In this document: positions 1,085 through 17,329 of the stretch, piece by piece | How the letters are laid out: the number at the start of each line of letters is the position of its first letter | Numbering within the stretch: position 1 is the stretch's first letter | Source of the DNA: a virus | Taxonomy: Duplodnaviria; Heunggongvirae; Uroviricota; Caudoviricetes | IMG/VR virus record: IMGVR_UViG_3300028833_000069 | Direction: 5' to 3' (one strand) | Length of the DNA stretch: 64,000 bases | Notes under the pieces: generated by a model | What the model saw: the letters and a program-made list of their open reading frames with translations, nothing else | Databases searched by the model: none | What the model was told of the DNA's origin: nothing | Translations under genes and position numbers: made by a program

Positions 1085-3382
1085 TCAATCCTTTTTGGGA
1101 ACTTGCAACAGTAGAGCATTTCTACTAAACCACGAACCTGCTCTTCTAAACTGTTCATTTCTTTGTATAACTTGTTGTTTAGGAATTTTTCCAAAATGTT
1201 TATATCCATACTCATCAGTATACCAACCTATTTCTTCTTGTGAAGCTTGTGGAACAGATTGTTGTATAGTTTTACCTATCATATCCTCATTTGCAAGCAG
1301 ACACATACCTAAACCAGCTACCATATCAAATTTTCTCTTATTTGCATAAGAATATCTTAGTAACTCATTTAGTAATTCAGGAAATTCTATATACTCACAG
1401 TAGTCTGTAATATAATCATTTATGAGGTCTAACTGATGATTAATAATATCATCTGTAGCAGGAGTACCATACTGATTAGGATTTGCTTTTCTAATAGTTG
1501 GCATTGTTGCTCTAGGTCTTTTTAAAAGCAAATCTGCACATTTCTTTTCTTTAAAATATGTAACAAGACTTATTTTAGTTGCTTCTATTAACCCTTTACA
1601 GTTATACATTCTCATCAGCTTAATAGCATTGTCAAATGCAATTCTAATATCTTTTGGTCTTTCCTTGTAAATTGCTACAGGTTTTGGTGGGGTTATACCC
1701 ATCATTCTTTTAAAGATAATAATACAAAACTCTGAAACATCAGATTGTCCAGATGATGTAGATGTATCATTATCAATAGAGTCTATACCAGCAACATATA
1801 AATTAGAAGGAACTAAACCATTTGAATCTTTTACAGGAAGCTCTACTATTTTGATTTTACTTCTAGAATCATATTCAAACTCAGGAACAGAAAATCTATC
1901 AACCAAATGTGGATCATCCTTCATTGGTCTAAATCTTAAAGTAATTCCTTGAGGAGGTTCAAATAATTTATGAATTTCAATATTAGCTAACTATGTAGAA
2001 AGTCTTTCTTTATCAAATTTATTCTCACCTTCAAGAATAAGAGCTTCTTCAGGAGTAAAGCAGTACTCTGCTTTATACATCATTAAATCTTTAGGATCGT
2101 TAATAAGAAGAGCTCTTCTATCCATATAGTATTTTTTAGCTCTTTCTTCATCAACTACACCTCTGTTATCATAGCCTATTTCTCCTTTATCTTGCTCACC
2201 AAACCACATTGTATAAGCAGGTATAAAATATCCTGTATAGGCTACTTCTTGTGCTTCATTATATCTATTTTTATAAGGAAGAACTTTATATTTTACAGGA
2301 TTATAAAACATTCTGGTGAGGCCTTCCAAGTTAGGGCCAGAGTCACCACCAGTTCCCCAAGCATATCTGATACCAAATTTAATACCATTGATTTCAGTCA
2401 AAGCTTCTCCCTTAATCCATGAAGCAATAAGGTGTTTATTAGAACCTGCTTCTTCAAACAGAAGCTTATCAGTTCTATCACCTCTGACTTTATCTGGCAC
2501 ATCTGCTACTTTACCTTCAATTTCTGACATCCACCCAGATTCATTTCTTTCCTCATCTAAAACAGATGCTCTCTTGAAGTTAGCAGTATCAATCACCATT
2601 CTTTGGTGAGCAAACATTCCTTTTGTATGAGTATTAAGGAAGTTTAATTGTGTCCACATTTTATCTGTCAACTTGTCCACAAAGAAATCATTTGGGGCAG
2701 TTGCCATAACTCTAGTATTTTCAAAAGCTGTATATAAATTAACAGATATTGATGCAGAAATCTCACTAGCACCGACTCCTCTGCTCTTAAAAGCAACTAC
2801 ATCCTTTTTTAATTTAGCAGCTAATTCCATATAATGGAAATACTCATACTACTTTGCTATAAATGTTGGAAATGTTTCATTTCTACCAGTAGCAGCACCT
2901 TTAATACCAACAACACTTTTCATTCTGTAATAGTTTAACCAGAAGTAATTGTCACCAGTAATATGATACTTACCAACAGTCATTCCATTCATACATCTAT
3001 CAAGTTCTCTATAGCAAAGATCTGCAAACATTACAGTACCAGGTATAAGAGAAGTATATTCACCTGTCTCTTCATAAGTCCTAGCCATTTCTGTAAAGTC
3101 ATCAGGATTAAAATCTAATCCTTTATCTTTTGTAATAGGTCTGTAGCCAGTTAATTCATAAGATAATTCAGGATCAAAATATTCAATAGGATCTCCTATC
3201 TTTACATCCCATTCACTATCTTCTTCTTGCTTTTCTTCAAGAACAATCTATTCTTCTTTATCTTCTTGGGGGATGTCCATAATAAATGTTCTTTTCTTAG
3301 TCTTCTTAGCATCAAGAGCAGCCGCCTCTTTAGACAGCTGCTCCTTTAATGCTTCTCTTTCTTCTTTAGAAAGTTTAGCCAT
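1085..3382 (-). CDS. terL: terminase large subunit (one reading frame with three in-frame TAG codons)
   Basis: Track ORFs 2849..3088, 1991..2830 and 1085..1924 are in one frame, each separated only by TAG (at 3248-3250, 2849-2851, 1991-1993). Manual translation extends the frame to the ATG at 3380-3382. An ATPase-like KSRGVGAS / LLFEEAG motif and a nuclease-like VAGIDSIDNDTSTSSG Asp motif are present. The frame ends on TGA. Confidence 0.7.
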
Positions 3383-3969
3383 TATTTCTTATCAAAGAAT
3401 CCTGGAGTTCTACCCCCTCTTAATCCAGTAGATTCTGCTTGCTCTGTTTTAAACTTTTCTTCTGCTTCTCTTTTAGCATCAAATAACTTAGGTAACTTAA
3501 TATAATCATCCATAATATCTTTAGATGTTGTTAAAAACTTACCAGTTACTTCATCCCTTTCAGAAAGGTCTAAATTCCTATATCTAGCGGTTAGTTTATG
3601 AACAGCATCATTCATAGCAGCTAAAAGAGGACCAAATAAAGAAGAGCTATCCTGTAGTTGATTATACCTATCAAAAGCAGCTTTAAACACAGGATCTTGT
3701 AATTCCTCTTTAGTTATACCAGTAGAAGCTACTGCCATATCATGTCTTTCTTGAGGAGTACTTTTATTTCCTGGAGCTAACCAATCAACTGCAAGATATA
3801 TATAAGTTAATTCTCTATATGCTTTAAGTCTTTTTTTACCAGTAGGATCTTCTTTACACTTATTTCTATCTACATCCCATAAATCTTTGAACTCTTTTAC
3901 TAATAAGATTTCAGGTTCATTAAGAGTTAAGGCATTGGACTTATTATCATAAACAAAAAACTTAACCAT
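3382..3969 (-). CDS. hypothetical protein, possibly terminase small subunit by position
   Basis: 195-aa ORF immediately upstream of terL, with a TAATG stop/start overlap. There is no motif support. Confidence 0.3.
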   Translation of the reverse strand: MVKFFVYDNKSNALTLNEPEILLVKEFKDLWDVDRNKCKEDPTGKKRLKAYRELTYIYLAVDWLAPGNKSTPQERHDMAVASTGITKEELQDPVFKAAFDRYNQLQDSSSLFGPLLAAMNDAVHKLTARYRNLDLSERDEVTGKFLTTSKDIMDDYIKLPKLFDAKREAEEKFKTEQAESTGLRGGRTPGFFDKK

Positions 3970-3980
3970 AAAATATATAA

Positions 3981-4391
3981 TTAGTGTAACACTGGTAGAC
4001 CTGTACAGCTATCAACTTCTATTAGTCTACCTCCAACTTTCTTTAACATGCAAGGACATTTCTTTTTTGGTTTGCCTCCATGTAATAATTTTTTGTAGTA
4101 ATCAAGTTTCATACCACACTTTGCTTTTGCAACAGCTTGCTATACAAGCTATACTACTTGTGCAGTAATTGCTTTTGGATCTGCACCTTCTGCTGCTAAA
4201 TTTTGAATAGCCTTAGCAGCATCTTGTACACTACCTGCATTTTGAATAAAGGCTTGTGCAATCTCAGGAGCATCGTTTTCAGAAAGACCACCATCAATCA
4301 GAATCTTAACAATTCCTTGTGTGAGTTCTTCCTCAGAAGGAGCCTGAGTTGCACCGCCTTCTTTAAATTTTTGTCTATTAAAGTATTGCAT
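3981..4391 (-). CDS. hypothetical protein with 2 in-frame TAG
   Basis: Track ORF 4149..4391 continues in frame through TAG at 4149-4151 and 4140-4142 to a TAA near 3981. The C-terminus is Lys- and Cys-rich. Confidence 0.3.
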
Positions 4392-4402
4392 AATTATAAA
4401 AA

Positions 4403-4639
4403 TTAATCCTCTCTACCAGACTTAACCAAAACAAGGTCTTTTGTAGAAAATAGGTTTTCTTGGAATGTACCATCAGTGGTAAACCAGAAACAACCAATTC
4501 CTTTTAATGTAGATATTTGATTATCTTTTAATCTATAAAGATTTTTATCAATCTTAGACACAACCATTACTGGTTTGTTAGGTATATCTTGTCTTAAAGT
4601 AACAACATCACCTGGCACAAAATATATTTTTTCTTCCAT
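4403..4639 (-). CDS. hypothetical small protein
   Basis: 78-aa ORF tightly packed upstream of the chaperonin genes. Confidence 0.35.
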   Translation of the reverse strand: MEEKIYFVPGDVVTLRQDIPNKPVMVVSKIDKNLYRLKDNQISTLKGIGCFWFTTDGTFQENLFSTKDLVLVKSGRED

Positions 4640-4642
4640 AAT

Positions 4643-4978
4643 TTATACATTTGGATTGTTATCAACTAATAAGAGGTTTTGCTCTGCAACAACCATATAT
4701 CCTGATTCAAAGAATACTGGTCTTGCACCTCTTATATCAAATAAAACATTGTCACCTTTATGAACAACCTCACATTTATTACCAACTGCTATAACTTTAC
4801 CCCACTTAAATGGTTGCTCTTTATAATCTAATTGGCCACTGTCAGGATTTTCAAATTCACCACCTGTTATTTCAAACTCATCAGCAGCAGCTTTTTTCTC
4901 ATAAGGATTGAATTCATAAGGGTCTACTAACAAATTAGTAAACACTGGTATAAAATTGTCTGTCATATCATTAAGCAT
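4643..4978 (-). CDS. GroES-like co-chaperonin
   Basis: 111 aa. The segment GKVIAVGN..VHKGDNVLF..YMVVAEQNLL resembles the GroES mobile-loop and roof region. It is adjacent to the GroEL-like gene. Confidence 0.5.
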   Translation of the reverse strand: MLNDMTDNFIPVFTNLLVDPYEFNPYEKKAAADEFEITGGEFENPDSGQLDYKEQPFKWGKVIAVGNKCEVVHKGDNVLFDIRGARPVFFESGYMVVAEQNLLLVDNNPNV

Positions 4979-6431
4979 TTAAAATTAAACAAGAACATGT
5001 TAAAATAATAGAAGCTGTATTAACAGCATTCTCTAAAGAAGTTTTTACAACTTCATATGGGTCTATTACACCTTCTTCATATAAATCACCAACCCATTCT
5101 CTAGTTTTAAAATTATATCCTGACCAGTTCATTGAAGCTGGAAGTAATTTACATTCTCCCGCACCAAAACAGTTTCTATATAATATATAATAAGGAGTAG
5201 TAAGTACATCCTTTAAATATTTTAATTCAGTACTTAATGCAATAGATGCTCTAAACAAAGCAGAGCCACCACCTGGAAGTACACCACCTCTTAAAGCAGC
5301 TCTTGTAGCACCAACAGCATCTTCTACTCTGTCTAATCTTTCTTTAACTTCTATTTCAGAATATCCTCCAACATAAATAGTCGCAATACCTGCTGTAAAA
5401 TTAGCAAGTCTTTTTCTCTGAAATTCTAAATCAGCTTCTTCAAGATTTCCTTTTTCTAAAAGTCCTTGGATAGCATTTACTTTTTCAGTAATAGCTTCCT
5501 CATTACTTTTATATCCAACAAAAGTACAAGTATCAGCAGTAGCAATTACTTTATCACAATAAAGTGTTTCTCCAAGAATATCTTTAATATCAGAAAGCAG
5601 AATACTTCTCTGAATACCAAAGTTAGGTGCTACTACCATACAAGAATCTAATTTATGTAAGTTATTTAAAAGATTTATTTTTATCTCAGAGTCAAAATCA
5701 GGAGCAATTAGCAACAGAGCCTTTTTCTTTCTGAGAGCTTCATTAGCTACCTCAGCAACTTTAGTTATCTCACTAATCTTTACATCTGAGATGTATACCA
5801 TTACATTTTGAAGTACACATGTATTCTCAGCAGTATTTACAAATCTTGAATCAAAATAACCATTGTCAAATTGAAAGCCTTCTGAAAATTCAATACCATC
5901 TGAGTTTGTCTTAGATTTCTCAAATTTAACAATCCCATTCTTACCTACTTTCTTGAAAGCATCTGCTACAAGTGTACCAATTTTAATATCATTATTGGCT
6001 GAAAGAGTTGCTACCTTAACAAGGTCTTTTTCAGTAATATCTCTTTTATATTCTTTCAACCAATTAACCACTTTTTCACAATCTTCTTGTAAATCTCTTT
6101 GGATTTGAATAGGATTTTCCCTACTATCTGCAAGAAGCTTTACAATTTCCCTAGAAAGAATAGTAGCAGTAGTACTACCATCACCAACATCACTAGATGT
6201 TTTCCTAGAAATATCTCTCACTGCATCAATACCCATTTGTACATAAGGGTCTTCATGAGTTACATAAGTAGCTACTGTACTACCATCTTTAGTGACATGT
6301 AAATGTCTACCAAGTTTAATCATTACATTCCTACCACTTGGTCCATAAGTAGCAGCTACACAATCAGAAACAAGATTAACACCTTTAATCAAGTTCTTTT
6401 TACATTCATCATTAAATTGTACATGTTCCAT
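4971..6431 (-). CDS. GroEL-like chaperonin (Cpn60 family)
   Basis: 486 aa. GDGSTTATIL matches the GroEL GDGTTTATVL ATP-binding motif. TYGPSGRNVMI and LPGGG segments are also present. Confidence 0.75.
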   Translation of the reverse strand: MEHVQFNDECKKNLIKGVNLVSDCVAATYGPSGRNVMIKLGRHLHVTKDGSTVATYVTHEDPYVQMGIDAVRDISRKTSSDVGDGSTTATILSREIVKLLADSRENPIQIQRDLQEDCEKVVNWLKEYKRDITEKDLVKVATLSANNDIKIGTLVADAFKKVGKNGIVKFEKSKTNSDGIEFSEGFQFDNGYFDSRFVNTAENTCVLQNVMVYISDVKISEITKVAEVANEALRKKKALLLIAPDFDSEIKINLLNNLHKLDSCMVVAPNFGIQRSILLSDIKDILGETLYCDKVIATADTCTFVGYKSNEEAITEKVNAIQGLLEKGNLEEADLEFQRKRLANFTAGIATIYVGGYSEIEVKERLDRVEDAVGATRAALRGGVLPGGGSALFRASIALSTELKYLKDVLTTPYYILYRNCFGAGECKLLPASMNWSGYNFKTREWVGDLYEEGVIDPYEVVKTSLENAVNTASIILTCSCLILNA

Positions 6432-6448
6432 TATAAGAAAATTTTAAT

Positions 6449-6739
6449 TTACCATTTATTAAGTGGACATTTTTTAGAAGCAACTCTTAATGCAGCTTCA
6501 TGTGGGCATCCACAACCACTGATATATCCTGGATGATATTCTGTAGATAAATCTTTTGTTTCAGGATTATACCATTTGTTTCTATCACATTTGCCTCCAC
6601 CAATTGTATCTGTGTGTAAAGGACATTTTAAACAAATAGGAAGCCTTTTATTAACTAATTCTTGTTCTCTATTAAGAACTCTATTAGTCCATCCTTCTGC
6701 TATTTGTCCAACCTAATCTAAAGAATCTATACCAAACAT
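6449..6739 (-). CDS. Cys-rich small protein with in-frame TAG
   Basis: Manual translation gives MFGIDSLD[TAG]VGQIAEGW...CLKCPLH...CGCPHE...KCPLNKW. It is missed by the ORF track because TAG at 6713-6715 splits it. Confidence 0.35.
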
Positions 6740-6741
6740 TG

Positions 6742-7341
6742 TTATTTTATTTTACCACCTATACCGATTCCAGCATGAACACCTACTTGTGGGCCATGCC
6801 CAAATGTACCAGTATTAACATTACCTTGTACTCCATAACCAGCACTAAAACCAAGATACCACACTATGCCTACTTTTTTAGGTTCTTTATATATTGTTGT
6901 TATCTTATTATTATACTGATGATCAAGATATATGTTGTCAATACCTGCTGCATAACCATGATAATCAACTTTTATTGCAGTAGAAGTACTATCAGTCTTT
7001 ATAGTATCACTGTACTGATTATACTCAATTGGTAATTGTACATAAGTACCATCTTGAGGAGTACTTTGAGTATCATTATTTAAAAAATAAATAGAATCTA
7101 CTCTAACAAGTGTGTCTCTCTTATAAAGAGTTCTTGTTTTTTCAATAATTCTTTCTTTTGTGACTGTTACTGTATCATGCACAGGCACATACTTAACAAC
7201 TGTCTTTGGCTCTGAACCTTTACAGTTAAACATTAAACATATACACAAAAAAATGTTAAACAAAAAAGATATTATAAATCCTTTATGTTTATTTAGATAT
7301 TCTTTCATTCCCATATTTTTTCTTATATAAAGCATATCCAC
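6742..7341 (-). CDS. putative membrane/lipoprotein
   Basis: 199 aa. An N-terminal hydrophobic segment ends in NCKGS, and the C-terminus is Gly-rich. Confidence 0.4.
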   Translation of the reverse strand: MDMLYIRKNMGMKEYLNKHKGFIISFLFNIFLCICLMFNCKGSEPKTVVKYVPVHDTVTVTKERIIEKTRTLYKRDTLVRVDSIYFLNNDTQSTPQDGTYVQLPIEYNQYSDTIKTDSTSTAIKVDYHGYAAGIDNIYLDHQYNNKITTIYKEPKKVGIVWYLGFSAGYGVQGNVNTGTFGHGPQVGVHAGIGIGGKIK

Positions 7342-7651
7342 TTCCTAATAAGAACAAACAGAAAGGAGATCCAATCGGCATCAACTTTCTGTTATACTCT
7401 GCTAAAGCTGCACTAATAGCTGCTTGGAGAGCTTGTTCATTAGGATATGTGGATTGTATATTCAGTCCACCATTTCTTATAACATGAGTTTCTTTCTAAT
7501 CTATAAGAACTCCAATGCCAACCCAGTAAATAATAGTAAACTCTTTACCATCATTTGCAATTACTGTTATACTATTATAACCTGGAGATTTAAGTGGTGG
7601 TCTAACATTGTTTATATTATATTCAATTACTTCACTTTGTTTAAAACCCAT
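7289..7651 (-). CDS. hypothetical protein with in-frame TAG
   Basis: Manual translation gives MGFKQSEVIEYNINN...VLID[TAG]KETHVIRNGG.... TAG lies at 7496-7498. It overlaps the next gene by about 50 nt. Confidence 0.3.
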
Positions 7652-7822
7652 ATTCTACTAAATCTACTCATTACTAACAGGCTATATTAGTAAGAATATG
7701 GATAATAATAATGCTTTAAGTTTCATTGTCTAATTCTTCAGGATCTTTAACTCCTTTAAAGACAAGATTATATATCATCATAGATATACATATTTGTTTT
7801 ATAAACCATTTCCAAATTTTTT

Positions 7823-8641
7823 TCATAATTCAATTGGATTACATTTAGCTAACTCCATCTTCATTTTTAAATCATTTATATGAAATTTTATTAACTTATC
7901 AACAGTTGATTTTAAATATTCAACAGGATAAGTTGCTTTTGGTTTCATATTTCTAACATGCACTATCTCTAATTTATCTATTTCCAAAGTTGGGTCTAAA
8001 TTCTGTAAACACCAAGCATATATAGATAACTGTAATTGATAATGAATTCCATTTACATCAGGTAGAGTGTTGAGAGGATACCTCATGTTCTTTGTTTTCA
8101 TTCTACCTGTATCAAATCTACCTTTAAAAGATATTTTGTCAACATCTTTCCAATCAATTATGGAAATATGTTTACCTTGTTTAACAACCAAATCTGCCAC
8201 ACCTACTATTGTGTAGTCTCCTATATTTACTTCCATTTTAAATTCTGGAAATAATCCAGACTCTGTAGTTAGGAAGTTGTCTACTTGACAAACAGGAAGT
8301 TTTGCAATACCGAAAGTATTTTGTAGAATTGTAACATCTTTTTTAAACATTTGTTCAATAGCTTCGTGTGTAGCTATACCAGCTGCTTTAGCTTCTTCAT
8401 TAGTATCTTTCCATTCTTTATTTATCTTTTCTAAAGAATCTTCATAAGCTTCTTTACCAACTTCAGCTATATACATAGGCAATATTCTTTTACTCCTTAA
8501 AAGACCAGTCTTAATTGCTGCAAACCTTTCTGGTTCCATTAACTTTTCTAAAGTTTTATAAGCAGCCCAAAACTCACCATCAAAACAGTGATATTGCTGA
8601 AGTAATACAGTTGTTGCAATTCTATTTTCTTCCATTATCAT
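7823..8641 (-). CDS. PD-(D/E)xK-type nuclease (RecB/Cas4/YqaJ-like)
   Basis: 272 aa. GVADLVV...IIDWKD and QLQLSIYA (QxxxY) motifs are typical of RecB-family nucleases. Confidence 0.45.
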   Translation of the reverse strand: MIMEENRIATTVLLQQYHCFDGEFWAAYKTLEKLMEPERFAAIKTGLLRSKRILPMYIAEVGKEAYEDSLEKINKEWKDTNEEAKAAGIATHEAIEQMFKKDVTILQNTFGIAKLPVCQVDNFLTTESGLFPEFKMEVNIGDYTIVGVADLVVKQGKHISIIDWKDVDKISFKGRFDTGRMKTKNMRYPLNTLPDVNGIHYQLQLSIYAWCLQNLDPTLEIDKLEIVHVRNMKPKATYPVEYLKSTVDKLIKFHINDLKMKMELAKCNPIEL

Positions 8642-9240
8642 TTAACATTTGTAAAATCAAGCAAGGTAGAAATTTGTTGAGATTTTTTTGATAAGTCACC
8701 TGTAATAAACTCCTTAGTAACTTTATGTTCAGACATAAATCCTAAAATAATAAATCCTATTGGAGTGTGAACTCCCTGAAGAGGACATACCACAATAGAT
8801 TTAAAACCATCTTCAGTTAATTCTTTATACATTCCAGGAAACACAGATTTAAGTTCTTTAATATCATCATACCAGACAATACCTTCCTTGTCTATCCTAT
8901 TTATAAAATGAGGTATTGCTGAAAGTAACATGTTATTAAACTAACTTGTCAATTCATCAATACCAAGTTTATTCTACTGAATTGTTGGAGTCATGTGTAG
9001 GAATTGTAAACCTGTCAGATTAGCTCCACCATTGTGATATTCAAATACAATAGCTCTATCTGCATCAGTTCTGTCTACTAAGTCTTTCATGACTTCTTTA
9101 ACTAACAAGACTTTCTCTTTTCTTGCTTTTAATGATTTTGCATGTGTATCCTCACTAGCATACTTTTCATGCCTTTTTTCAAAGTAAGGTTTCCAACTTG
9201 TAATATAAGTTACAATAGCAAATGCTAAAAAGAATAGCAT
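8638..9240 (-). CDS. membrane-anchored hypothetical protein with 2 in-frame TAG
   Basis: Track ORFs 8974..9240 and 8638..8931 are in one frame and joined through TAG at 8974-8976 and 8941-8943. The N-terminus has a TM helix. The gene ends on TGA. Confidence 0.4.
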
Positions 9241-9312
9241 TACACCTAGAATACCCCACTAATTAAAAAAATCTAATACTGTTGTAAGATTCATCTTTGT
9301 TATTTTCTCTAG

Positions 9313-9787: not shown

Positions 9788-9790
9788 ATG

Positions 9791-9873: not shown

Positions 9874-9880
9874 TAAATTG

Positions 9881-9953: not shown

Positions 9954-9959
9954 ATTATG

Positions 9960-10033: not shown

Positions 10034-10038
10034 ATAAG

Positions 10039-10112: not shown

Positions 10113-10117
10113 ATAAG

Positions 10118-10148
10118 TTGCGGGGGTGGGACTCGAACCCACAACCTT
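10118..10148 (-). pseudogene. orphan 3' half of an initiator-like tRNA (T-arm GTGGG-TTCGAGT-CCCAC plus acceptor 3' strand CCCCGCA-A)
   Basis: The 3' end resembles bacterial tRNA-fMet (..CCCCCGCAAC). No matching 5' acceptor strand (TGCGGGG) exists nearby. The upstream sequence is the HNH coding region. Confidence 0.4.
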
Positions 10149-10380
10149 AAATTTTAGATTCTTGAAAATGATGCCATTGATGACAATTAGGACAAAGTAA
10201 AATACATTTATTCATTTCAGCTTTAATTTTGTCAAAGCTTAAATTACCTACTTCAGAACCACTAAAATCAAAAGATTTAGTAGAAGGATCTATATGATGA
10301 AACTATAGTATTTCAGGATGTTCTTTCCATCCACAAATAGCACAACATTTATCTTCTTTATACTTACGAAGAAAATTCAT
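10147..10380 (-). CDS. HNH homing endonuclease (77 aa) with one in-frame TAG
   Basis: Manual translation gives MNFLRKYKEDKCCAICGWKEHPEIL[TAG]FHHIDPSTKSF...NLS...LLCPNCHQWHHF. This is the CxxC...HH...N...CxxCH...H His-Me finger. TAG lies at 10303-10305. The gene sits between two Met-type tRNA sequences. Confidence 0.6.
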
Positions 10381-10453
10381 TCTTTTTTCTCTTCTTTTTC
10401 TGAAGTATTCTGTTCTTTTTCTCTAGTCTTTATACATAATTATAATTTTTAAG

Positions 10454-10729: not shown

Positions 10730-11620
10730 ATGAATCAAAATATATCAGAATTAGTAAAAGACCTGAAAACTCTTCCATTATTTAAAACTGGTGGAGGTAT
10801 ACACATTAAACCAGAGAATAAAGGAAAATTTACAGAGACTATGAAAAGAACTGGCAAAACCGCTGAAGAACTTTCACATAGTAAGAATGAATTAACAAGA
10901 AAGAGAGCATAGTTTGCACTTAATGCAAGAAAATGGAAACACCAAGAGGGTGGCACTATTGGATTATTTCAAGGTAAAAACTATTATAAACACAGTGCAA
11001 CTCAAGATAATTCACCATTGTATGATCCATATAAATTTAAAAATCTTGTTTATTCACCAGAAGATGAGGATGAAAGAAGAGAAGAAGAAATAATAGAAAT
11101 TCCTGAAGAAGTCCCTGTTACTAACCCCACCCTTACCAAAAAGACTACAGCTCCTAGAAATACAACATATTATAGACCTGCTTATCAAGGTAAAGAACAA
11201 TGGGTAAAGGATTTATATCAAGCCTATATAAATGCAGGTGCTTCTGAGAGTTTAGCACACACTCTTATAGCTCAGGATGCTATTGAAACAGCCTGGGGCA
11301 AGAAGACAGTGGGTAATTACAATTATGGTAATATACATGCTGGTAGTTCATGGAGAGGTGCAGTTGTTAATGCAAATGATAGAGATGCCACTGGAAATCC
11401 TTATAGAACAGGATTTAGAAGTTATAATAATATGAATGAATATGTAGCAGATAAATTATCATTGCTTACAAGATTATATGGAATAACAAATACTGATACT
11501 CCAGCTGTTGTAAAAGCTAAATTAGAAGGAGCAAACAGAAATGGTTATAAATATGCTGAGGCTGGACAACCTAGTTTATTAGCAACAACTGCTTCTGTAG
11601 CAAGAATGTTTCAATCATAA
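10730..11620 (+). CDS. peptidoglycan glucosaminidase (FlgJ-like Glucosaminidase domain), one in-frame TAG
   Basis: Track ORFs 10730..10912 and 11018..11620 share a frame and are continuous through TAG at 10910-10912. The domain motif is AQDAIETAWGKKTVGNYNYGNI...GNPYRTGFRSYNNMNEYVADKLSLL. Confidence 0.6.
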
Positions 11621-11624
11621 AACA

Positions 11625-11660
11625 AGAAACCCCAATAGGAAATTCCTACTGGGGTTTTAT
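11625..11660. terminator. bidirectional hairpin terminator between convergent genes
   Basis: AACCCCAATAGGAA-ATTCCTACTGGGGTT stem followed by TTTTATTTTTAT. Confidence 0.5.
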
Positions 11661-11662
11661 TT

Positions 11663-12826
11663 TTATACAGTATAAGTCAAACTTATAATTTGATTATCTG
11701 CTGTTAGTACTCTAGTTTCAATTACTGGATTGAAATCTTTAAATGCATCAGAGTACATACTAGGTTTTATTGCAAAGTCTTTAACTTTAGTAACAACTTT
11801 AGTATTACTATAGTCTGCTTTGTATGGTTTGAAGATTGTGCTTACTGCTATAGGTTCTCCTCCTTTAAATATAACTTTTTCAGATTCAACTGAACATAAG
11901 TTAATACCTAAATAATTAGGAAAAGTATCAAGCTTTATTGGAAATTCTTGATCTACAGTATCTTCTCTTATTGGAAGCTCTATAATATTTAGTTCATCAC
12001 ATTCTTTACAAGGCTCTTCAACTTCTTTATTAAGTTCTTCCATGTCTTTTGCTGAAATTAAAGTATAACCTTCAAGTTCTTCTTTTGTATCACATAAAAA
12101 GTTGCCTTCAACTATTTCTTTACCGTCTGCCTTAAAAGAAGCTTCTACTTTTTTATCATTTGCCTTGAATTCAACATGCAATGTTCTTACAATAGGTTCA
12201 CCATTTTCTTTAACAACTACTACATCATCAAATGCAGCACTTGTAATAACACTTCTTTTTGGGAATATAAAGAAATCAATACCAAAGAAATCAAGTGCTT
12301 CTTGAGCTTCTTCAAATGTCATGTCGTGCTTAATTTCAATGCAATTTACATTCTTTTCCACAGGTTTTTCCATAGGTTTAAAATTAACTTCTACTTCAGA
12401 GGGACTCATATATCTATAAATACCATCAACATTTATAAGAACATCTTCTTCTTTTAAAATAGTGTCGTCTAATCTTGAAACAATACAGATTTCCTTACCT
12501 GGTACAATGTATATACCAAAATTACCTTCTTTTATAGGACCATTATGTATTTGATACTTAATTCTTACAGATCCTTCTAAATCAAATGGTACAACTTTAT
12601 TAAGATTATTAAGATATTTCTCTGCATCTTCTTTTGTATCAAAGAAATTCTTAATCACTACATAAGGACACCAATCTGGTATATATCCAAACATTTCTTC
12701 TTTTTCTAAATCTAAATGAAATGCAGCAGCTTCTTTCTTAGCTTGCTGTTCCTTTTGCTCTGCTTTCTCTTCAAGAGCTTTTACAAATTCGTCTAAAATT
12801 TTGTCAAATTCCATATTCATTAACAT
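11663..12826 (-). CDS. hypothetical late (probably structural) protein
   Basis: 387-aa acidic ORF. No recognisable motif. Confidence 0.45.
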   Translation of the reverse strand: MLMNMEFDKILDEFVKALEEKAEQKEQQAKKEAAAFHLDLEKEEMFGYIPDWCPYVVIKNFFDTKEDAEKYLNNLNKVVPFDLEGSVRIKYQIHNGPIKEGNFGIYIVPGKEICIVSRLDDTILKEEDVLINVDGIYRYMSPSEVEVNFKPMEKPVEKNVNCIEIKHDMTFEEAQEALDFFGIDFFIFPKRSVITSAAFDDVVVVKENGEPIVRTLHVEFKANDKKVEASFKADGKEIVEGNFLCDTKEELEGYTLISAKDMEELNKEVEEPCKECDELNIIELPIREDTVDQEFPIKLDTFPNYLGINLCSVESEKVIFKGGEPIAVSTIFKPYKADYSNTKVVTKVKDFAIKPSMYSDAFKDFNPVIETRVLTADNQIISLTYTV

Positions 12827-12844
12827 TTAATTGTTATCGAGTAA

Positions 12845-13240
12845 TTATACAGGAGTGTAATATTGATATTTCTTTGGCTGCAATGTCTGCCCAACAGCAT
12901 TGACTGCATTGTTACCGATTTGTGCAGTTGTCTAAAGAGCATTGGCTCCAATGTTTCCTGCTGTTTGCAAACCGTTCGTCGCAACAGAACCTGCTGCTTG
13001 CATTCCTGTATTGGCCAATTGTCCACCTGCTCTAATACCAGCATTAGCTACTTGTGCAGTTGTCTGAAGACCTGTACCTACTGCACTTGCACCTACATCC
13101 AAAGCTGTTCCTAAAATAGATCCAATAGCTTGTCCACCAACTTTAAGGCCTTGTTTAATGCCATTACCAATTTTCTGCATAAAGTCTATAAAACCACCTG
13201 CATCTAATTTTTTAGGCTAATAATACTTTAAATTACTCAT
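12845..13240 (-). CDS. Gly/Ala/Asn-rich small protein with 2 in-frame TAG
   Basis: Track ORF 12932..13180 extends through TAG at 12932-12934 to a TAA at 12845. A plausible start is MSNLKYY[TAG]PKKLD at 13238-13240. Confidence 0.3.
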
Positions 13241-13243
13241 ATC

Positions 13244-13801
13244 TTATAATGTGTTATCTTTAATTATATTTTTAATAAGTTTTACATGTAATTCAGCAAT
13301 TCTTTGTCTTCCCTTTTCTGACATTATAAATCTACAGTCTTTTTCTGTATCCATGAAAAAATTCTCAGTTAAAATTGCAGGACATTTTGTATATTTAACT
13401 ATTTGATAGTTAGCTTCTTTATGCCCTCTACATTTCCATTCTGGAAAATCTTTTTTAAACATATCTACCATTCTGTTAGCAATAATGTCAGATTTAGTTT
13501 TACCAGTAGAAGTAAAAACTTCCCAACCAGTACCACCACCTGCATTTGCATGTATAGATATAAGGAAGCAATTTTTTTCAGCATTTGCTCTCCTACATCT
13601 CATATTAAGAGATATATCTTTATCTTCTGGAACTAAAATAGTATATGGTATTTTTTCAATATCTAACATTTTAGCTATCCTTTTTACTATATCTCTGGTA
13701 AACTCCCATTCAAATAACTAGGAGCTGTCATTCCAAATAGGGCTTCTTTTACCAGGTGTTTCCTGGCCATGCCCATTATCAAGTAATACTTTGTTAATCA
13801 T
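13244..13801 (-). CDS. N-acetylmuramoyl-L-alanine amidase (Amidase_3), one in-frame TAG
   Basis: N-terminus MINKVLLDNGHGQETPGKRSPIWNDSS[TAG]LFEWEFTRDIV.... Downstream lie LISIHANAGGGTGWEVF and PAILTENFFMD. TAG is at 13718-13720. Confidence 0.65.
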
Positions 13802-13956
13802 GATTGTGATCAATAGTAGATAAATAATTTAAACTGTCTTCAAAATCTAAGAACCATTGTTCATTAGTAGCTTCATTCTTTTCAACAGCAATAATAAAAA
13901 CATCATTTAGTAAAAGAATAGCTTTAGATACTTTTTTCAATAACCATTTCCTCATT

Positions 13957-14259
13957 TTAATTCTCTTTTGGAATATATAATGTGCAAACACATTTATCAT
14001 GTAGCCTATATTGCTCACATGGGCAATGTTTGTCTCCATCATCTTCATGATGGCAAGGACACTCACCTTTACATCTGTTAATGCCTCTTATAATACCTTG
14101 CACAATTTTCTCATTTGGATTTAAGATAAAACCTTCTCTGCAATTTTTACTTACATAATCTAAATCAATAGAATGATCTTGCATATCCTTTTCTTTTTTC
14201 ATGTTCAGCACCTTTATTTGATCTTTCAAAAGTTTCCTCAAAAAGGGTAGTAATATCAT
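13957..14259 (-). CDS. Cys/His-rich small protein (possible Zn-binding)
   Basis: CKGECPCHHEDDGDKHCPCEQY cluster. It overlaps track ORF 13794..14066 in another frame. Confidence 0.3.
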   Translation of the reverse strand: MILLPFLRKLLKDQIKVLNMKKEKDMQDHSIDLDYVSKNCREGFILNPNEKIVQGIIRGINRCKGECPCHHEDDGDKHCPCEQYRLHDKCVCTLYIPKEN

Positions 14260-14866
14260 CTAAAGATAGTTCTGGATTATTCCAAGCTGTTTTGAAATCA
14301 GAAACTGGAAATAATCTACCTTCCCTCTCTCTGTCACCATACCTTTCATCGGTATATTTTAAAATCTTTTCATACTCTCTTTTAAGAGTAGGATTGTTAG
14401 GATATTTATCATACTCAGCTTTTGCTCTAGCAAGTATATCCTTTTGAGCATTATATCCATTCATATATATGTCATGGCCACTATTTATAACCCATAACAT
14501 ATAATCTATTTCTGGATATTTACCAGTTTTATTAGATTTAAGCCAGTTATTATAATGTCTAGCTCTATCACCTAACATCTGGAACAAACCTGTTGCTGTA
14601 GAATCTGGATTAGCAGCTTTAATGTTAAAACTTGACTCTTGCATTATATTGCCCATTAAAGCAGCAGCATTTCTTTTACTAACTCCTTTCTCAAGTAAGT
14701 AGTTCCACAAATCTGACATTAAATCATATTGGCTTGGTGTAAAATATTGCTCATTACCAATACCTTTTAAATATGATTCAATATCAGCTTTTGCTTTAAA
14801 TGGCCCAGATTCTTTTATAGTACCACCAGGTTGCAATTTCTTAATTGGTATATAAAATCTACTCAT
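14165..14866 (-). CDS. lysozyme-like peptidoglycan hydrolase domain protein
   Basis: The NAAALMGNIMQESSFNIKAANPDSTATGLFQM motif is typical of phage tail/lysozyme-like PG hydrolase families. Confidence 0.5.
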   Translation of the reverse strand: MSRFYIPIKKLQPGGTIKESGPFKAKADIESYLKGIGNEQYFTPSQYDLMSDLWNYLLEKGVSKRNAAALMGNIMQESSFNIKAANPDSTATGLFQMLGDRARHYNNWLKSNKTGKYPEIDYMLWVINSGHDIYMNGYNAQKDILARAKAEYDKYPNNPTLKREYEKILKYTDERYGDREREGRLFPVSDFKTAWNNPELSLDDITTLFEETFERSNKGAEHEKRKGYARSFY

Positions 14867-14882
14867 ATCTATTATAATTTAG

Positions 14883-14972
14883 TAGCCCCTGAGGGACTCG
14901 AACCCTCACAACCTCCAACAGAAGGATATAACAGTTTTAGAGACTGGTGTACTGCCATTATACTAAGGGGCA
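14883..14972 (-). tRNA. suppressor tRNA with anticodon CUA (reads UAG), class II with long variable arm
   Basis: Anticodon stem CAGT/ACTG with a 7-nt loop CTCTAAA (U33, CUA at 34-36, A37). The anticodon is complementary to plus 14938-14940 tag. D-arm GTAT-AATGGCA-GTAC. Variable arm of about 23 nt with a CCTTC/GGAGG stem. T-arm GAGGG-TTCGAGT-CCCTC. Acceptor GCCCCT/AGGGGC with a 1:72 mismatch. Confidence 0.6.
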
Positions 14973-14996
14973 AAACAAGCTCTTCATAGAAGAGCC

Positions 14997-15167
14997 TTAT
15001 TCACAAACTTTATCAGCAATTGCAGTACCAACTAAAGCACCAAAAGCTCCAGCCATTACTGTAAACAAACCAACATACCAAGTAATTGCAAAACCAATTA
15101 AAGACAATGCTACATATCCTGTTCCACCAATTACTTTTCTCCAATTCTTTTTAAACCATTCTTTCAT
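14997..15167 (-). CDS. small membrane protein (56 aa), holin/spanin candidate
   Basis: Manual translation MKEWFKKNWRKVIGGTGYVALSLIGFAITWYVGLFTVMAGAFGALVGTAIADKVCE. It lies next to the PG hydrolases. Confidence 0.3.
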   Translation of the reverse strand: MKEWFKKNWRKVIGGTGYVALSLIGFAITWYVGLFTVMAGAFGALVGTAIADKVCE

Positions 15168-15289
15168 ACTTTTCTTTCTTAATTTCTTCTAACATTAAAC
15201 CTACTTTAAGATAAGCTTCATCTCTTATAGGATCTATACCATATACTCTGTTATAACAATACATTATACAGCTATCTAAAAATTCTAAC

Positions 15290-15433
15290 TCACTCATTTT
15301 CAATTAATCCCAACCCACTCAATCCTATAAAGAACATAGTAGGAATCATTACTAAACAAACTACTGACATACCAGCAAATATTAAACCAGCATATAAGCA
15401 GTAGCCAAACATTTTAAAATACTTCTTAATCAT
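15290..15433 (-). CDS. small membrane protein (47 aa), holin candidate
   Basis: Manual translation MIKKYFKMFGYCLYAGLIFAGMSVVCLVMIPTMFFIGLSGLGLIENE. Confidence 0.25.
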   Translation of the reverse strand: MIKKYFKMFGYCLYAGLIFAGMSVVCLVMIPTMFFIGLSGLGLIENE

Positions 15434-15660
15434 TTTTTCTTACTTGCTACTTTTAAAATATAATCTATTACTTCAGCTGCATATATAAACTTAACTCTTA
15501 ATACAATATGAGTAAGAGAACTTACAATAATTGTACCATTAACATAGTTAAATATTACTTTAGGCCATCCTTTTTGAGAATATGCCTGACTGAACTCTTT
15601 ATCTTCTCTAACATACCCAAACATTATGAGTAATTCCTTAAGATTATTTACATCATTCAT
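15430..15660 (-). CDS. hypothetical protein
   Basis: 76-aa track ORF. Confidence 0.3.
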   Translation of the reverse strand: MNDVNNLKELLIMFGYVREDKEFSQAYSQKGWPKVIFNYVNGTIIVSSLTHIVLRVKFIYAAEVIDYILKVASKKK

Positions 15661-15740
15661 ATTACATTTTGTTTAATTTTACAGTGCAAAGGTACTACTT
15701 TTTTAAGCCTAAAAAAACCCAAACTGTTAAAAACAAATTT

Positions 15741-15775
15741 AGCTCCCTCATTGTGTAATGAGAGAGCTAAATTTT
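15741..15775. terminator. hairpin terminator
   Basis: TTAGCTCCCTCATT-GTGTA-ATGAGAGAGCTAA followed by ATTTTTT, just downstream of the gene ending at 15780. Confidence 0.5.
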
Positions 15776-15779
15776 TTGA

Positions 15780-16580
15780 TTAACTAAGTGTCCTGTTCTC
15801 CATTTCGTTTATATAGATAATACCATTTGTAGAATCATAATCAAATACATGCCACAATGGGAATTGCATATAATTAGCATCTGGAGTTGTTCCAGAAGCT
15901 TGTGTTGCTCTAGAAGAATCAATTTCAATTATAGGATTATTTAATAAACTTACAGTAACTTTAGCACCAGTATTGGATATTTGTACTCCAGCTGTTTTAG
16001 ATTGTGTGGAGTAATTAAATATATAAAACTTTAACTTGTAAGAATTATCCCAAGTTTTAATAGAGGTTGTTTCTATACCTCCAGGAAGCTCTTTATCCCT
16101 ACCACCAACTCCATCATCAATATCTAAACTAAGTACAGCATTACCAATTGTTTTATCAACTCCTACATCATTAAACATTACTCTACCTAATTGATTATCG
16201 TTAGAATCATAAACAAATGCCCAGCTGTCTAAGTCTTGAGTAGCACTAGATGCACCTATATTCCAAGTAAGTACTGATGATAAAATTCTATCTCTTTTGG
16301 TTAAAGGTATTTGCTATATATAACTAGTAGTTACAACATAATTTGTAACATCTTGATAAACATTAGTGTTATCTTTAAAAGTCAAAGTACTTCCAATCCA
16401 TTCTGAAGAGAGTTGTATATATTCAGAAGTGATATAGTCAACACCTTGAGTGTTATGAGTAATGAGTGTGCCATTATAATAAACATCAATCTTTGATGTA
16501 TCATATAAAGTTCCTAATTCAGATTGTAAGAAACATAATCTTACAGCTCTAGGATATAAGTATTTCTTAGATATTAACAT
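15780..16580 (-). CDS. hypothetical late protein with one in-frame TAG (possible fiber/receptor-binding type)
   Basis: Track ORFs 16314..16580 and 15780..16178 share a frame and are continuous through TAG at 16314-16316. The sequence is rich in Thr/Ser/Asn/Gly. Confidence 0.4.
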
Positions 16581-16837
16581 TATTGTAAGTATTTGTAGTT
16601 TATAAAGTCATCTAGCTAACTTTGAGTATAGTAATATTTTTCATCAAGTATGGCTTTAAGATTTTTAGTATTCCAAGATATACTTTTTTCTTTTACCCAA
16701 GGATAATTAACATTTATATATTTGTCAAGTGGTGTCCCTGAAGTATTACCCATAACAGGTTCTGTTACTTTTGCTTTAGGAGCATATAAACCTCTCTTAG
16801 GACCATCTTTTACAACTCTGTTGTCATGTCTAGCTTG

Positions 16838-17329
16838 CTACTCAACAATTGCTTTATAATTACTTTGTCTATTAGCTTGTTCTCTTATAGCAGCACTTTT
16901 AGCAGCAGCTTTTTCAGCATTTCTTCCCAGAAATCTGTTATAAGCAGCATCAACAAAAGCTTTAAAGTTTTCTGAAGTAAAAGGCACTTCTTTCCCATTT
17001 AAAGGAAGTTTAGCAGATAAATACTTTCCTCTTGGTTGTGGACCACCTAAAGTTAAAGCTTTACTTATAAAAGGTCTAGCTACACTAGAACCAGGCACAG
17101 CAACTGCTGTAACAGCTTCCATGCTGTGCGTATTAGGGTCTCCTGCAATATACCTACCAACAGTAGGCCAGCCTGTTAATTCAAGGAACTAATTTCCTCC
17201 ATATAAGAAATAATCTTTAGCATCTCTTAAATGGTCTTTAATCAACTCTACTCTCTAATTAAGAGGTAATGCTGGTAATGCAGAAGGAACTCCTCCTTGC
17301 TATAATTTATAAGGTTTATAATATGTCAT
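16838..17329 (-). CDS. hypothetical protein with three in-frame TAG
   Basis: MTYYKPYKL[TAG]QGGVPSALPALPLN[TAG]RVELIK...GGN[TAG]FLELTGW... continues into track ORF 16838..17122. Confidence 0.4.

What the first reader, a model, noticed from the sequence alone, without database searches (positions are those of the whole stretch)
1085..17329. Amber (TAG) codons are read through in late genes: terminase and at least 14 other genes carry 1-3 in-frame TAGs
TerL is split by the ORF track into three pieces. These pieces lie in one frame, separated only by single TAG codons. No other stop intervenes for about 2.3 kb, and both ATPase and nuclease motifs are retained. The same pattern holds for the amidase (catalytic N-terminus upstream of a TAG), the glucosaminidase, the HNH endonuclease and 11 further ORFs, including two extended by read-through of their terminal TAG. 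All of these genes finish on TGA or TAA. A tRNA-Trp(CCA) is present, so UGA is not reassigned. This is the pattern reported for code-15-like late-gene recoding in some gut phages. It means the ORF track under-calls this region.
Basis: seen in the sequence. Interest (0 to 1): 0.8.

Follow-up and report, generated by a model that had tools for sequence, protein, structure and literature searches.

The report
Amber codon read as glutamine
This is part of a 168-kb crAss-like gut or rumen phage that reads the stop codon TAG as glutamine in its packaging and lysis genes, using its own suppressor tRNA; the trick is real here but already described for this phage group.

Summary

- **Extent.** In window 1-18,300, 12 genes carry 27 in-frame TAG codons and all end on TAA or TGA. 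They include portal, TerL, an Amidase_3 endolysin, a glucosaminidase and an HNH endonuclease.
- **Not chance.** Family models match in one stretch across the TAGs. No TGA, and only one TAA (between adjacent in-frame genes), shows coding signal on both sides. Coding density rises from 73% to 88%.
- **TAG means glutamine.**
  - TerL codon 178 is Q in 110 of 110 homologs.
  - The amidase TAG is Q in 117 of 119 homologs.
  - At 16 of 19 informative sites, related genomes carry CAA or CAG.
- **Standard-code block.** In the opposite-strand block (18.6-64 kb), TAG is still a stop. Seven of 85 ORFs end on it and none reads through.

This matches the code-15 late-gene recoding published for Zeta-group crAss-like phages, so it is a new member of a known kind.

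Two details are worth a note:
- The suppressor tRNA has an added long variable arm.
- A second, ochre-type tRNA(UUA) is present, although TAA remains the main terminator.

The parts
1..845 (-). Portal gene, 5' part. The gene runs off the left edge of the window. In-frame TAG at 354-356.
   Evidence: PHROG 6547 (portal) matches aa 23-260, across the TAG at codon 164. The TAG aligns with CAG in relatives L001 and L002. Another assembly of the same genome calls a 731-aa portal with 1 TAG.
1085..3382 (-). Terminase large subunit, 765 codons. TAG at 3248-3250, 2849-2851 and 1991-1993. Ends on TGA.
   Evidence: Codon 178 is Q in 110 of 110 homologs. Codon 464 is Q in 78 and R in 32. Codon 45 is variable. 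Relatives carry CAG, CAA and CAA at the three sites.
3981..4391 (-). 136-aa hypothetical protein. TAG at 4149-4151 and 4140-4142.
   Evidence: Both TAGs align with CAG in L001. Both flanks show coding signal.
6449..6739 (-). 96-aa Cys-rich hypothetical protein. TAG at 6713-6715 (codon 9).
   Evidence: No ATG, GTG or TTG start lies downstream of the TAG that would give an ORF of 40 aa or more. The TAG and the protein upstream of it are conserved in L001 and L015. A code-15-aware caller calls the same 96-aa gene.
7289..7726 (-). 145-aa protein that looks as if it has a signal peptide. Up to 5 TAGs, with first base at 7684, 7666, 7660, 7657 and 7498.
   Evidence: The orthologs in L001 and L015 carry E, Q, Q, K and Y at these sites. 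TAG 7498 has coding signal on both flanks. The start is uncertain: another caller starts the gene after the TAG cluster, giving 120 aa and 1 TAG.
8638..9294 (-). 218-aa membrane protein (phrog_30125). TAG with first base at 9261, 8976 and 8943.
   Evidence: The PHROG stretch covers aa 20-126 and spans two TAGs. Sites 8976 and 8943 are CAG in L001 and L015, and 9261 is a conserved TAG.
10147..10437 (-). HNH endonuclease inside the tRNA array. TAG with first base at 10425 and 10305.
   Evidence: PHROG 2255 and PF01844 span the TAG at 10305. The gene is absent from relative L001.
10730..11620 (+). Glucosaminidase-domain protein of 296 aa, on the opposite strand. TAG at 10910-10912.
   Evidence: PF01832 matches at 26.5 bits, below the 30.2-bit cut-off. 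tblastn to L001 runs across the TAG with identical flanks and Q at the site. The site is CAA or CAG in four relatives.
12845..13240 (-). 131-aa Gly/Ala-rich protein next to the amidase. TAG with first base at 13219 and 12934.
   Evidence: Both TAGs are CAA in L001, L006, L014 and L015.
13244..13801 (-). N-acetylmuramoyl-L-alanine amidase (endolysin). TAG at 13718-13720.
   Evidence: PF01520 covers model positions 1-173 of 174, across the TAG. The site is Q in 117 of 119 homologs, including cellular Bacteroidia enzymes.
14882..14972 (-). Amber suppressor tRNA, anticodon CUA, 91 nt. It has an extra variable arm of about 20 nt and a U1.U72 mismatch. It sits directly upstream of the lysozyme and amidase cassette.
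   Evidence: ARAGORN finds it. Rfam tRNA scores 52 bits with a 20-nt insertion. An 88-nt allele sits at the same position in L006, L014 and L015. That allele differs by four compensatory double changes in the D and anticodon stems.
15780..16580 (-). 266-aa hypothetical protein. TAG at 16314-16316.
   Evidence: Both flanks show coding signal. The L014 ortholog is 83% identical and keeps the TAG.
16580..17329 (-). 249-aa hypothetical protein. 5 TAGs, with first base at 17302, 17257, 17191, 16840 and 16618.
   Evidence: The L014 ortholog is 90% identical over the full length. Sites 16840 and 16618 are CAA there, and the other three TAGs are conserved. TAG 16840 has coding signal on both flanks.
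18638..64000 (+). Standard-code block encoding RtcB, NAD-salvage enzymes and many small ORFs. TAG is a terminator here.
   Evidence: Of 85 ORFs that pass the coding filter, 49 end on TAA, 29 on TGA and 7 on TAG. Each TAG end is followed by the next gene. No TAG has coding signal on both sides.
48653..48729 (+). Second suppressor-type tRNA, anticodon UUA (ochre type). Its role is unknown. By wobble it could also read UAG.
   Evidence: ARAGORN finds it. Rfam tRNA scores 64.4 bits. It is present in independent assemblies L020 and L021.

Best explanation
The window comes from a circular crAss-like phage of about 168.5 kb that fits the published Zeta-group description. The phage uses two codes.

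**The two blocks**
- The + strand block (18.6-64 kb) uses the standard code, and TAG terminates there.
- The block at 1-18.3 kb continues leftwards into the structural genes. It holds packaging, lysis and other genes, and there TAG is a minor glutamine codon: 27 TAG against 24 CAG and 123 CAA.

**Proposed mechanism**
1. The phage tRNA(CUA), encoded just upstream of the lysozyme and amidase genes, is made during infection.
2. It is charged with glutamine, most likely by the host GlnRS.
3. It then out-competes release factor 1 at UAG.
4. Until it has accumulated, portal, TerL, the two cell-wall hydrolases and the other recoded genes give only truncated products.
5. Recoding therefore acts as a translational gate on packaging and lysis.

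**Shown versus inferred**
- Shown here: the in-frame TAGs, their equivalence to Gln, the suppressor tRNA with its conservation, and the split of the window into two coding regimes.
- Inferred: which enzyme charges the tRNA, when it is expressed, and the regulatory purpose.
For: **TAGs are in frame**
- Family models span them: TerL, portal, amidase, HNH and phrog_30125.
- The coding-signal test gives 11 TAG, 1 TAA and 0 TGA in this block, against 0 TAG in the other block.
- Coding density rises from 72.6% to 88.0%.
- An independent caller on an identical contig reports the same full-length genes.

**TAG is Gln**
- TerL codon 178 is Q in 110/110 homologs, and codon 464 is Q in 78 and R in 32.
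- The amidase site is Q in 117/119 homologs.
- Of 19 sites where a relative has a sense codon, 16 are CAA or CAG. The rest are E, K and Y.
- Conversely, the relatives' own TAGs align with window CAA, CAG, or Q-like residues (E, K, R, D).

**The decoder**
- tRNA(CUA) scores 52 bits against the Rfam tRNA model.
- It sits at the same place in three related contigs.
- Compensatory changes keep pairs 10-25, 11-24, 28-42 and 29-41.
- It has U1 with a weak 1:72 pair, like the phage's own tRNA-Gln(UUG) and like tRNA(CUA) genes of other large phages.

**TAG is still a stop elsewhere**
- Seven + block ORFs end on TAG.

**Precedent**
- PMC7886860, bioRxiv 10.1101/2021.08.26.457843 and PMC9523058. The last gives proteomic proof of TAG to Gln in crAss-like phages.
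Against: - There is no protein-level or expression data for this phage.
- The suppressor has a long variable arm, which normal tRNA-Gln lacks, so charging with Gln is not assured by its sequence.
- With the variable arm removed, it is no closer overall to the phage tRNA-Gln than to its tRNA-Arg.
- Half of the genes in the recoded block have no TAG, including the GroEL-like gene, the PD-(D/E)XK nuclease, the lysozyme and the GNAT. The gate therefore covers only some late genes.
- The suppressor lies inside the recoded block and on its strand, so 'early tRNA, late genes' is not evident from the layout.
- No release factor or GlnRS was seen in the window. About 105 kb of the genome was not examined.
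Confidence: 0.9

Rival explanations
1. TAG is read through but as another amino acid, such as Tyr, Leu, Ser or Lys. The suppressor's long variable arm would make it a type II tRNA, or the tRNA(UUA) would be the real decoder.
For: - The tRNA(CUA) has a variable arm of about 20 nt and A73, as in bacterial tRNA-Leu and tRNA-Tyr.
- A tRNA(UUA) with a tRNA-Lys-like shape is present.
- A few TAGs align with Y, K or E in relatives.
Against: - Invariant or near-invariant Gln aligns with the TAG in TerL (110/110) and the amidase (117/119).
- 16 of 19 informative sites are CAA or CAG in relatives. None is a Leu or Ser codon in a confirmed gene.
- The D arm is type I, with a 4-bp stem and a 7-nt loop, not type II.
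Confidence: 0.04
2. TAG is sense across the whole genome, or in the host as well, rather than in one block. The apparent TAG stops in the + block would simply be read through.
For: Reading through the seven + block TAG ends would add only 1-17 codons, which might be tolerated.
Against: - No + block TAG lies inside a gene.
- Every TAG-ended ORF there is followed at once by the next gene's start, or overlaps it.
- The published hosts of such phages use the standard code (bioRxiv 10.1101/2021.08.26.457843).
Confidence: 0.05
3. The TAGs are damage: a decaying phage, pseudogenes, or assembly or sequencing errors.
For: None beyond the presence of stop codons in essential genes.
Against: - Only TAG occurs in frame, never TGA. 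The single TAA with coding signal on both sides separates two adjacent in-frame genes.
- There are no frameshifts.
- The same sequence appears in independent assemblies.
- TAG positions are partly conserved and partly exchanged with CAA or CAG among relatives with 71-87% nucleotide identity.
- A matching suppressor tRNA is maintained by compensatory changes.
Confidence: 0.01

Closest known systems
Code-15 (TAG to Gln) recoding of late genes in crAss-like phages, especially the Zeta group (Yutin et al. 2021, PMC7886860; Borges et al., bioRxiv 10.1101/2021.08.26.457843; Peters et al. 2022, PMC9523058)
   Same: - TerL is crAss-like.
- The genome is 168.5 kb, within the Zeta range of 145-192 kb.
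- TAG sits in TerL, portal and lysis genes.
- The rest of the genome uses the standard code.
- A phage tRNA(CUA) is present.
- Group I introns are present.
- The genome is low in G+C and prefers TAA as terminator.
   Different: - Nothing differs in principle.
- The suppressor tRNA carries an extra variable arm.
- A tRNA(UUA) is also encoded.
- Placement among named Zeta genomes was not tested.
Lak megaphages and other TAG-recoded gut phages (Garnet, Amethyst, Topaz, phAss-1; PMC10607447)
   Same: - TAG is read as Gln with phage suppressor tRNAs.
- tRNA(CUA) genes from contigs of 373-436 kb share U1, the anticodon loop and the T arm with this one.
   Different: - These are unrelated phage lineages.
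- Their tRNA(CUA) genes have normal short variable loops.
- Lak phages also recode replication genes and may encode RF2. No release factor was found in this window.
E. coli supE, the amber suppressor tRNA-Gln(CUA) (own knowledge)
   Same: - The CUA anticodon inserts Gln at UAG in competition with RF1.
- The tRNA has U1 and a weak first pair.
   Different: - supE is a chromosomal point mutant that gives partial suppression.
- Here the tRNA is a dedicated phage gene serving dozens of sense TAGs.
- This tRNA has a long variable arm and A73.
Code-4 (TGA to Trp) phages with a 'code change module' next to the lysis cassette (Jade and Agate; Borges et al.)
   Same: The suppressor tRNA lies directly upstream of recoded lysis genes.
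   Different: - A different codon and amino acid are involved.
- No aminoacyl-tRNA synthetase or release factor lies beside the tRNA here.

Membership tests
Code-15 stop-codon recoding in phages | Conserved genes are interrupted only by TAG and are otherwise open and in frame. | tested here: met
   There are 27 TAG and no TGA inside the 12 genes. The only TAA with coding signal on both sides lies between adjacent genes.
Code-15 stop-codon recoding in phages | TAG positions align with glutamine in homologs. | tested here: met
   TerL codon 178 is Q in 110/110. The amidase site is Q in 117/119. 16 of 19 sites are CAA or CAG in relatives.
Code-15 stop-codon recoding in phages | The phage encodes a tRNA with anticodon CUA. 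| tested here: met
   It lies at 14882-14972(-) and is conserved in L006, L014 and L015.
Code-15 stop-codon recoding in phages | Recoding is confined to the structural and lysis block, and TAG is a stop elsewhere. | tested here: met
   The + block has 7 ORFs ending on TAG and no internal TAG. Only this 64-kb window was examined.
Code-15 stop-codon recoding in phages | Peptides show Gln at TAG. | not testable with these tools
   This needs proteomics, as in PMC9523058.
Crassvirales, Zeta group (Yutin 2021) | TerL is related to crAss-like TerL. | tested here: met
   PHROG 6681 matches at E = 3e-70. tblastn hits to crAss-like phages are 26-30% identical over about 80% of the protein.
Crassvirales, Zeta group (Yutin 2021) | Genome of 145-192 kb. 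| tested here: met
   Identical contigs are 168,492 and 168,493 bp.
Crassvirales, Zeta group (Yutin 2021) | Placement within the Zeta clade in a TerL tree that includes named members. | not tested
   No named Zeta genome was retrieved. The best GenBank relatives are unannotated 'Bacteriophage sp.' records.
Crassvirales, Zeta group (Yutin 2021) | Many self-splicing introns or inteins. | tested here: inconclusive
   There is one group I intron in the window and one in a relative's TerL. Several TerL homologs carry intein domains. Density across the whole genome is not known.
Pyrrolysine decoding (ARAGORN labels the tRNA 'Pyl') | tRNA-Pyl architecture: a 3-nt variable loop, a very short D loop, and no G18G19 or T-psi-C motifs (own knowledge). 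| tested here: not met
   The tRNA has a variable arm of about 20 nt, a 7-nt D loop with GG, and a TTCGAGT T loop. The aligned residue is Gln, not Lys or Pyl.
Bacterial type II tRNA (Leu, Ser, Tyr) | A long variable arm together with a 3-bp D stem and an enlarged D loop, and insertion of Leu, Ser or Tyr. | tested here: not met
   The long arm is present, but the D stem has 4 bp and the D loop 7 nt. TAG sites do not align with L or S, and only once with Y.
tRNA-Gln-type amber suppressor (supE-like) | U1 with a weak 1:72 pair, U35, a short variable loop, and charging by GlnRS. | tested here: inconclusive
   U1.U72 or U1.G72 and U35 are present. The 5' 27 nt match the phage tRNA-Gln(UUG) at 23 positions. 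The short variable loop is not met. Charging cannot be tested here.

The most novel reading that the evidence does not exclude
The suppressor may be a structurally new kind of tRNA. It has a Gln-inserting type I body that has gained a stable extra variable arm of about 20 nt and a mismatched 1:72 pair. It is kept in at least two alleles by compensatory changes.

The extra arm could serve one of several purposes:
- It could set when or by what the tRNA is charged.
- It could shield the tRNA from host or rival-phage tRNA nucleases. The phage also encodes an RtcB ligase.
- It could tune competition with RF1.

Together with the co-encoded tRNA(UUA), this would mean a more elaborate code-switching apparatus than the single plain suppressor usually assumed.
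Probability: 0.2. Interest if true: 0.55.

Novelty: new member of a known kind. Interest (0 to 1): 0.25.

Why it matters
**Annotation**
- Standard-code gene calling breaks TerL, portal, both cell-wall hydrolases and eight other genes into fragments.
- It leaves about 15% of the block wrongly non-coding.
- The genome should be annotated with TAG as Gln in this block only.

**Biology**
- The window is a clean further example of a phage that runs two genetic codes in one genome, with its suppressor tRNA placed next to the lysis genes.
- The mechanism is already published and has been confirmed by proteomics in related phages.
- The only fresh material is the unusual architecture of the suppressor tRNA and the unexplained ochre-type tRNA.

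Tried and rejected
**Read-through of other stops**
- TGA read-through: no TGA has coding signal on both sides in this block, and treating TGA as sense does not raise ORF coverage.
- TAA read-through via tRNA(UUA): the few in-frame TAA junctions are adjacent genes with an ATG just after the stop.
- Distances to the next in-frame stop show no clear back-up signal. The excess of TGA after TAA looks like a by-product of TAATGA start/stop overlaps.

**Rejected readings**
- Pyrrolysine: the 'tRNA-Pyl' label rests on the anticodon alone.
- Doubtful TAG genes:
  - 838-1215 overlaps the TerL 3' end and shows off-frame-like substitutions.
  - TAG 7347 lies upstream of the start chosen by another caller.
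  - TAG 14262 is TTG in relatives and sits just before an ATG.

**Searches that found nothing**
- Pattern scans for the long-arm tRNA(CUA) found only this lineage. The other hits were unrelated or had short variable loops.
- A pattern scan for tRNA(UUA) found nothing.
- The search for related loci with two window proteins found no relatives.
- tblastn of the 249-aa and 266-aa proteins against GenBank phages found nothing. These two were later validated through contig L014.
- Searches of solved structures with TerL and with a TerL profile found nothing. Calling the invariant Q178 the ATPase adenine-binding glutamine therefore remains an inference from its position 21 residues before the K-x-R-x-x-G-x-S motif.
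- A release-factor GGQ scan of the + strand found nothing.
- No intron-containing tRNA was found near the group I intron.

Full report
**What the window is.** The window is AT-rich, about 32% G+C. GC skew splits it into a minus-strand block (1 to about 18,300) and a plus-strand block (about 18,600-64,000). It carries 24 tRNA genes.

The first 11,698 bases are the exact reverse complement of the start of JGI contig Ga0310694_10000054, which is 168,492 bp. An ENA assembly of 168,493 bp and several Logan contigs carry the same sequence. The window is therefore a piece of a circular phage genome of about 168.5 kb that has been recovered repeatedly.

TerL matches the crAss-type terminase family PHROG 6681 at E = 3e-70. 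It also hits crAss-like phages at 26-30% identity. The size, the deep TerL branch, the introns and the coding behaviour fit the 'Zeta' group of crAss-like phages in PMC7886860. I did not build a tree with named members.

**The observation.** TerL is a single frame, 1085-3382(-), of 765 codons. It has TAG at codons 45, 178 and 464, no TAA or TGA, and a TGA terminator. TAA plus TGA occupy 1048 of 18,300 codon positions on this strand, so an open run of that length has a chance of about 1e-20.

Family models cross the TAGs in one stretch in five genes:
- TerL, aa 97-707
- portal, aa 23-260
- Amidase_3, model positions 1-173 of 174
- HNH
- phrog_30125

Its TAG is at 10910. tblastn to a relative runs straight through it, with identical flanks.

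I trained a codon model on long uninterrupted ORFs and asked which stop codons have strong in-frame coding signal for 50 codons on both sides. The minus block gave 11 TAG, 1 TAA and 0 TGA. The single TAA lies between two adjacent in-frame genes. The plus block gave 0 TAG.

My curated list has 12 genes with 27 in-frame TAGs, and all end on TAA or TGA. Three further candidates are doubtful.

Protein-coding density in the block rises from 72.6% to 88.0% when TAG is read as sense, and to 93% with the tRNAs included. Median gene length rises from 100 to 145 aa. A code-aware gene caller used for an identical Logan contig reports the same full-length genes.

**Which amino acid.** Three independent lines point to glutamine.

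1. I aligned TerL with 110 full-length homologs from metagenomes. Codon 178 is Q in all 110, against a background Q frequency of 3.7%. Codon 464 is Q in 78 and R in 32. Codon 45 lies in a variable N-terminal region.
2. The amidase TAG is Q in 117 of 119 homologs, including enzymes from cellular Bacteroidia.
3. Four related phage contigs (L001/L006, L014, L015, L003) are collinear with the window at 71-87% nucleotide identity.
   - At 19 window TAG sites, at least one relative has a sense codon. It is CAA or CAG at 16 of them. The exceptions (E, K, Y) all lie in one fast-evolving small protein.
   - Conversely, the relatives' own in-frame TAGs align with window CAA or CAG. In the more distant L003 TerL they align with Q, E, K, R and D.

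In the recoded genes TAG is about as common as CAG: 27 TAG, 24 CAG and 123 CAA.

Q178 is invariant and sits 21 residues before the invariant K199-x-R201-x-x-G204-x-S206 motif. I take this to be the adenine-binding glutamine ahead of the Walker A loop of terminase ATPases. This is an inference, because no solved structure could be aligned by sequence.

**The decoder.** It scores 52 bits against the Rfam tRNA model. It lies directly upstream of the lysozyme (14165-14866), a small Cys-rich ORF, the amidase and a Gly/Ala-rich protein.

The same gene, as an 88-nt allele, occupies the same position in three related contigs. The two alleles differ in three ways:
- Double compensatory changes at pairs 10-25, 11-24, 28-42 and 29-41.
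- The first pair is U1.U72 in one and U1.G72 in the other.
- The register of the extra stem is different.

This is strong evidence for a functional tRNA.

Its architecture is unusual:
- The body is type I, with a 4-bp D stem, a 7-nt D loop containing GG, and a normal T arm.
- A variable arm of about 20 nt forms a 5-bp hairpin.
- The 5' 27 nt match the phage's own tRNA-Gln(UUG) at 23 positions.
- U1 with a weak first pair is shared with tRNA(CUA) genes from other very large phage contigs, which have ordinary short variable loops.

Pattern scans of the viral and metagenome collections found the long-arm form only in this lineage. ARAGORN's 'tRNA-Pyl' label rests on the anticodon alone, and the structure is not that of tRNA-Pyl.

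**The other block.** In the plus block, 85 ORFs pass the coding filter. Of these, 49 end on TAA, 29 on TGA and 7 on TAG. Each TAG end is followed immediately, or overlapped, by the next gene's start. No long ORF there has an internal TAG.

This block encodes RtcB, nicotinamide phosphoribosyltransferase, PRPP synthetase, NAD synthetase, a radical-SAM protein and many small ORFs. No ORF with a release-factor GGQ motif was found. TGA is a stop throughout. The valid evidence is the absence of a tRNA(UCA), the many TGA terminators and the lack of any in-frame TGA.

**Mechanism.**
- Shown: two coding regimes in one genome, TAG equivalent to Gln in one of them, and a conserved phage amber suppressor beside the lysis genes.
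- Inferred from published work on related phages (bioRxiv 10.1101/2021.08.26.457843; PMC7886860):
  - A host synthetase, probably GlnRS, charges the tRNA.
  - The tRNA competes with RF1.
  - Full-length portal, terminase and cell-wall hydrolases appear only once the tRNA has accumulated, which guards against premature packaging or lysis.
- Caveats:
  - Half the genes in the block have no TAG. These include the GroEL-like gene, the nuclease, the lysozyme, the GNAT and a 387-aa protein.
  - The tRNA is co-oriented with the recoded genes.
  - Nothing here measures timing.

**Rivals.**
- Another amino acid at TAG is contradicted by the invariant-Gln alignments.
- Pseudogenisation or sequencing error is contradicted by four things:
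  - In-frame TGA is absent, and the only TAA with coding signal on both sides separates adjacent genes.
  - There are no frameshifts.
  - The sequence has been recovered in independent assemblies.
  - TAG exchanges with CAA and CAG among relatives.
- Genome-wide TAG sense cannot be fully excluded, because read-through of the seven plus-block TAG ends would add only 1-17 codons. No plus-block gene needs it.

**Comparison and novelty.** This is the phenomenon described for crAss-like phages by Yutin et al. (PMC7886860). Borges et al. generalised it (bioRxiv 10.1101/2021.08.26.457843), and Peters et al. verified it by metaproteomics (PMC9523058). The same checks have been used elsewhere, for example for phAss-1, where TAG sits at conserved TerL Gln positions (PMC10607447).

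All the defining features I could test are met. The window is a new member of a known kind, and interest is low to moderate.

The least ordinary elements are the long-arm suppressor tRNA and the co-encoded tRNA(UUA) at 48653-48729. That tRNA scores 64 bits and appears in independent assemblies. TAA nevertheless remains the main terminator, with no sign of TAA read-through in the window.

Noticed in passing
window 14882-14972 (-); L006 3045-3132; L014 8829-8916; L015 265-352: The amber suppressor tRNA(CUA) has a type I body plus an extra variable-arm hairpin of about 20 nt and a U1.U72 (or U1.G72) first pair. Two alleles differ by four compensatory double changes. Pattern scans found this long-arm form only in this lineage.
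   Followed up: partly
window 48653-48729 (+): A well-formed tRNA with anticodon UUA (ochre suppressor type, Rfam 64 bits) sits in the standard-code block and is present in independent assemblies. TAA is the main terminator (49 of 85 + block ORFs), and no TAA read-through was detected. Its amino-acid identity and role are unknown.
   Followed up: partly
window 34686-34926 (+): A group I intron (RF00028, 87.7 bits) has no recognisable interrupted gene around it. A Cys-rich ORF lies next to it on the opposite strand at 35066-35497. No intron-containing tRNA was found there.
   Followed up: partly
L001 10606-10834: In the 169-kb relative, TerL is split inside its Walker A motif (KSRGV|GAS) by an insertion of about 255 nt that matches the group I intron model (35 bits, E = 2e-7). 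The window's TerL has no intron.
   Followed up: partly
window 9312-10525 (-): An array of 11 tRNA genes lies in the recoded block. An HNH endonuclease gene (10147-10437) sits between tRNA-Gly and tRNA-Met. The HNH gene carries two TAGs and is absent from relative L001, so it looks like a mobile insertion that uses the late code.
   Followed up: partly
window 35936-43446 (+): The standard-code block encodes an RtcB-type RNA ligase together with NAD-salvage enzymes (NAMPT, PRPP synthetase, NAD synthetase) and a radical-SAM protein. With 24 tRNAs in the window, this hints at tRNA repair and defence countermeasures.
   Followed up: no
window 4971-6431 (-): A GroEL-like chaperonin of 486 aa (Cpn60_TCP1, PHROG 5725) lies in the recoded block but has no TAG.
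   Followed up: no
L005 6401-6494: An unrelated 58-kb viral contig carries a 94-nt tRNA(CUA) with a true type II body (Ser/Leu/Tyr-like D arm and long variable arm) among 12 tRNAs. It is a possible case of TAG read as something other than Gln.
   Followed up: no
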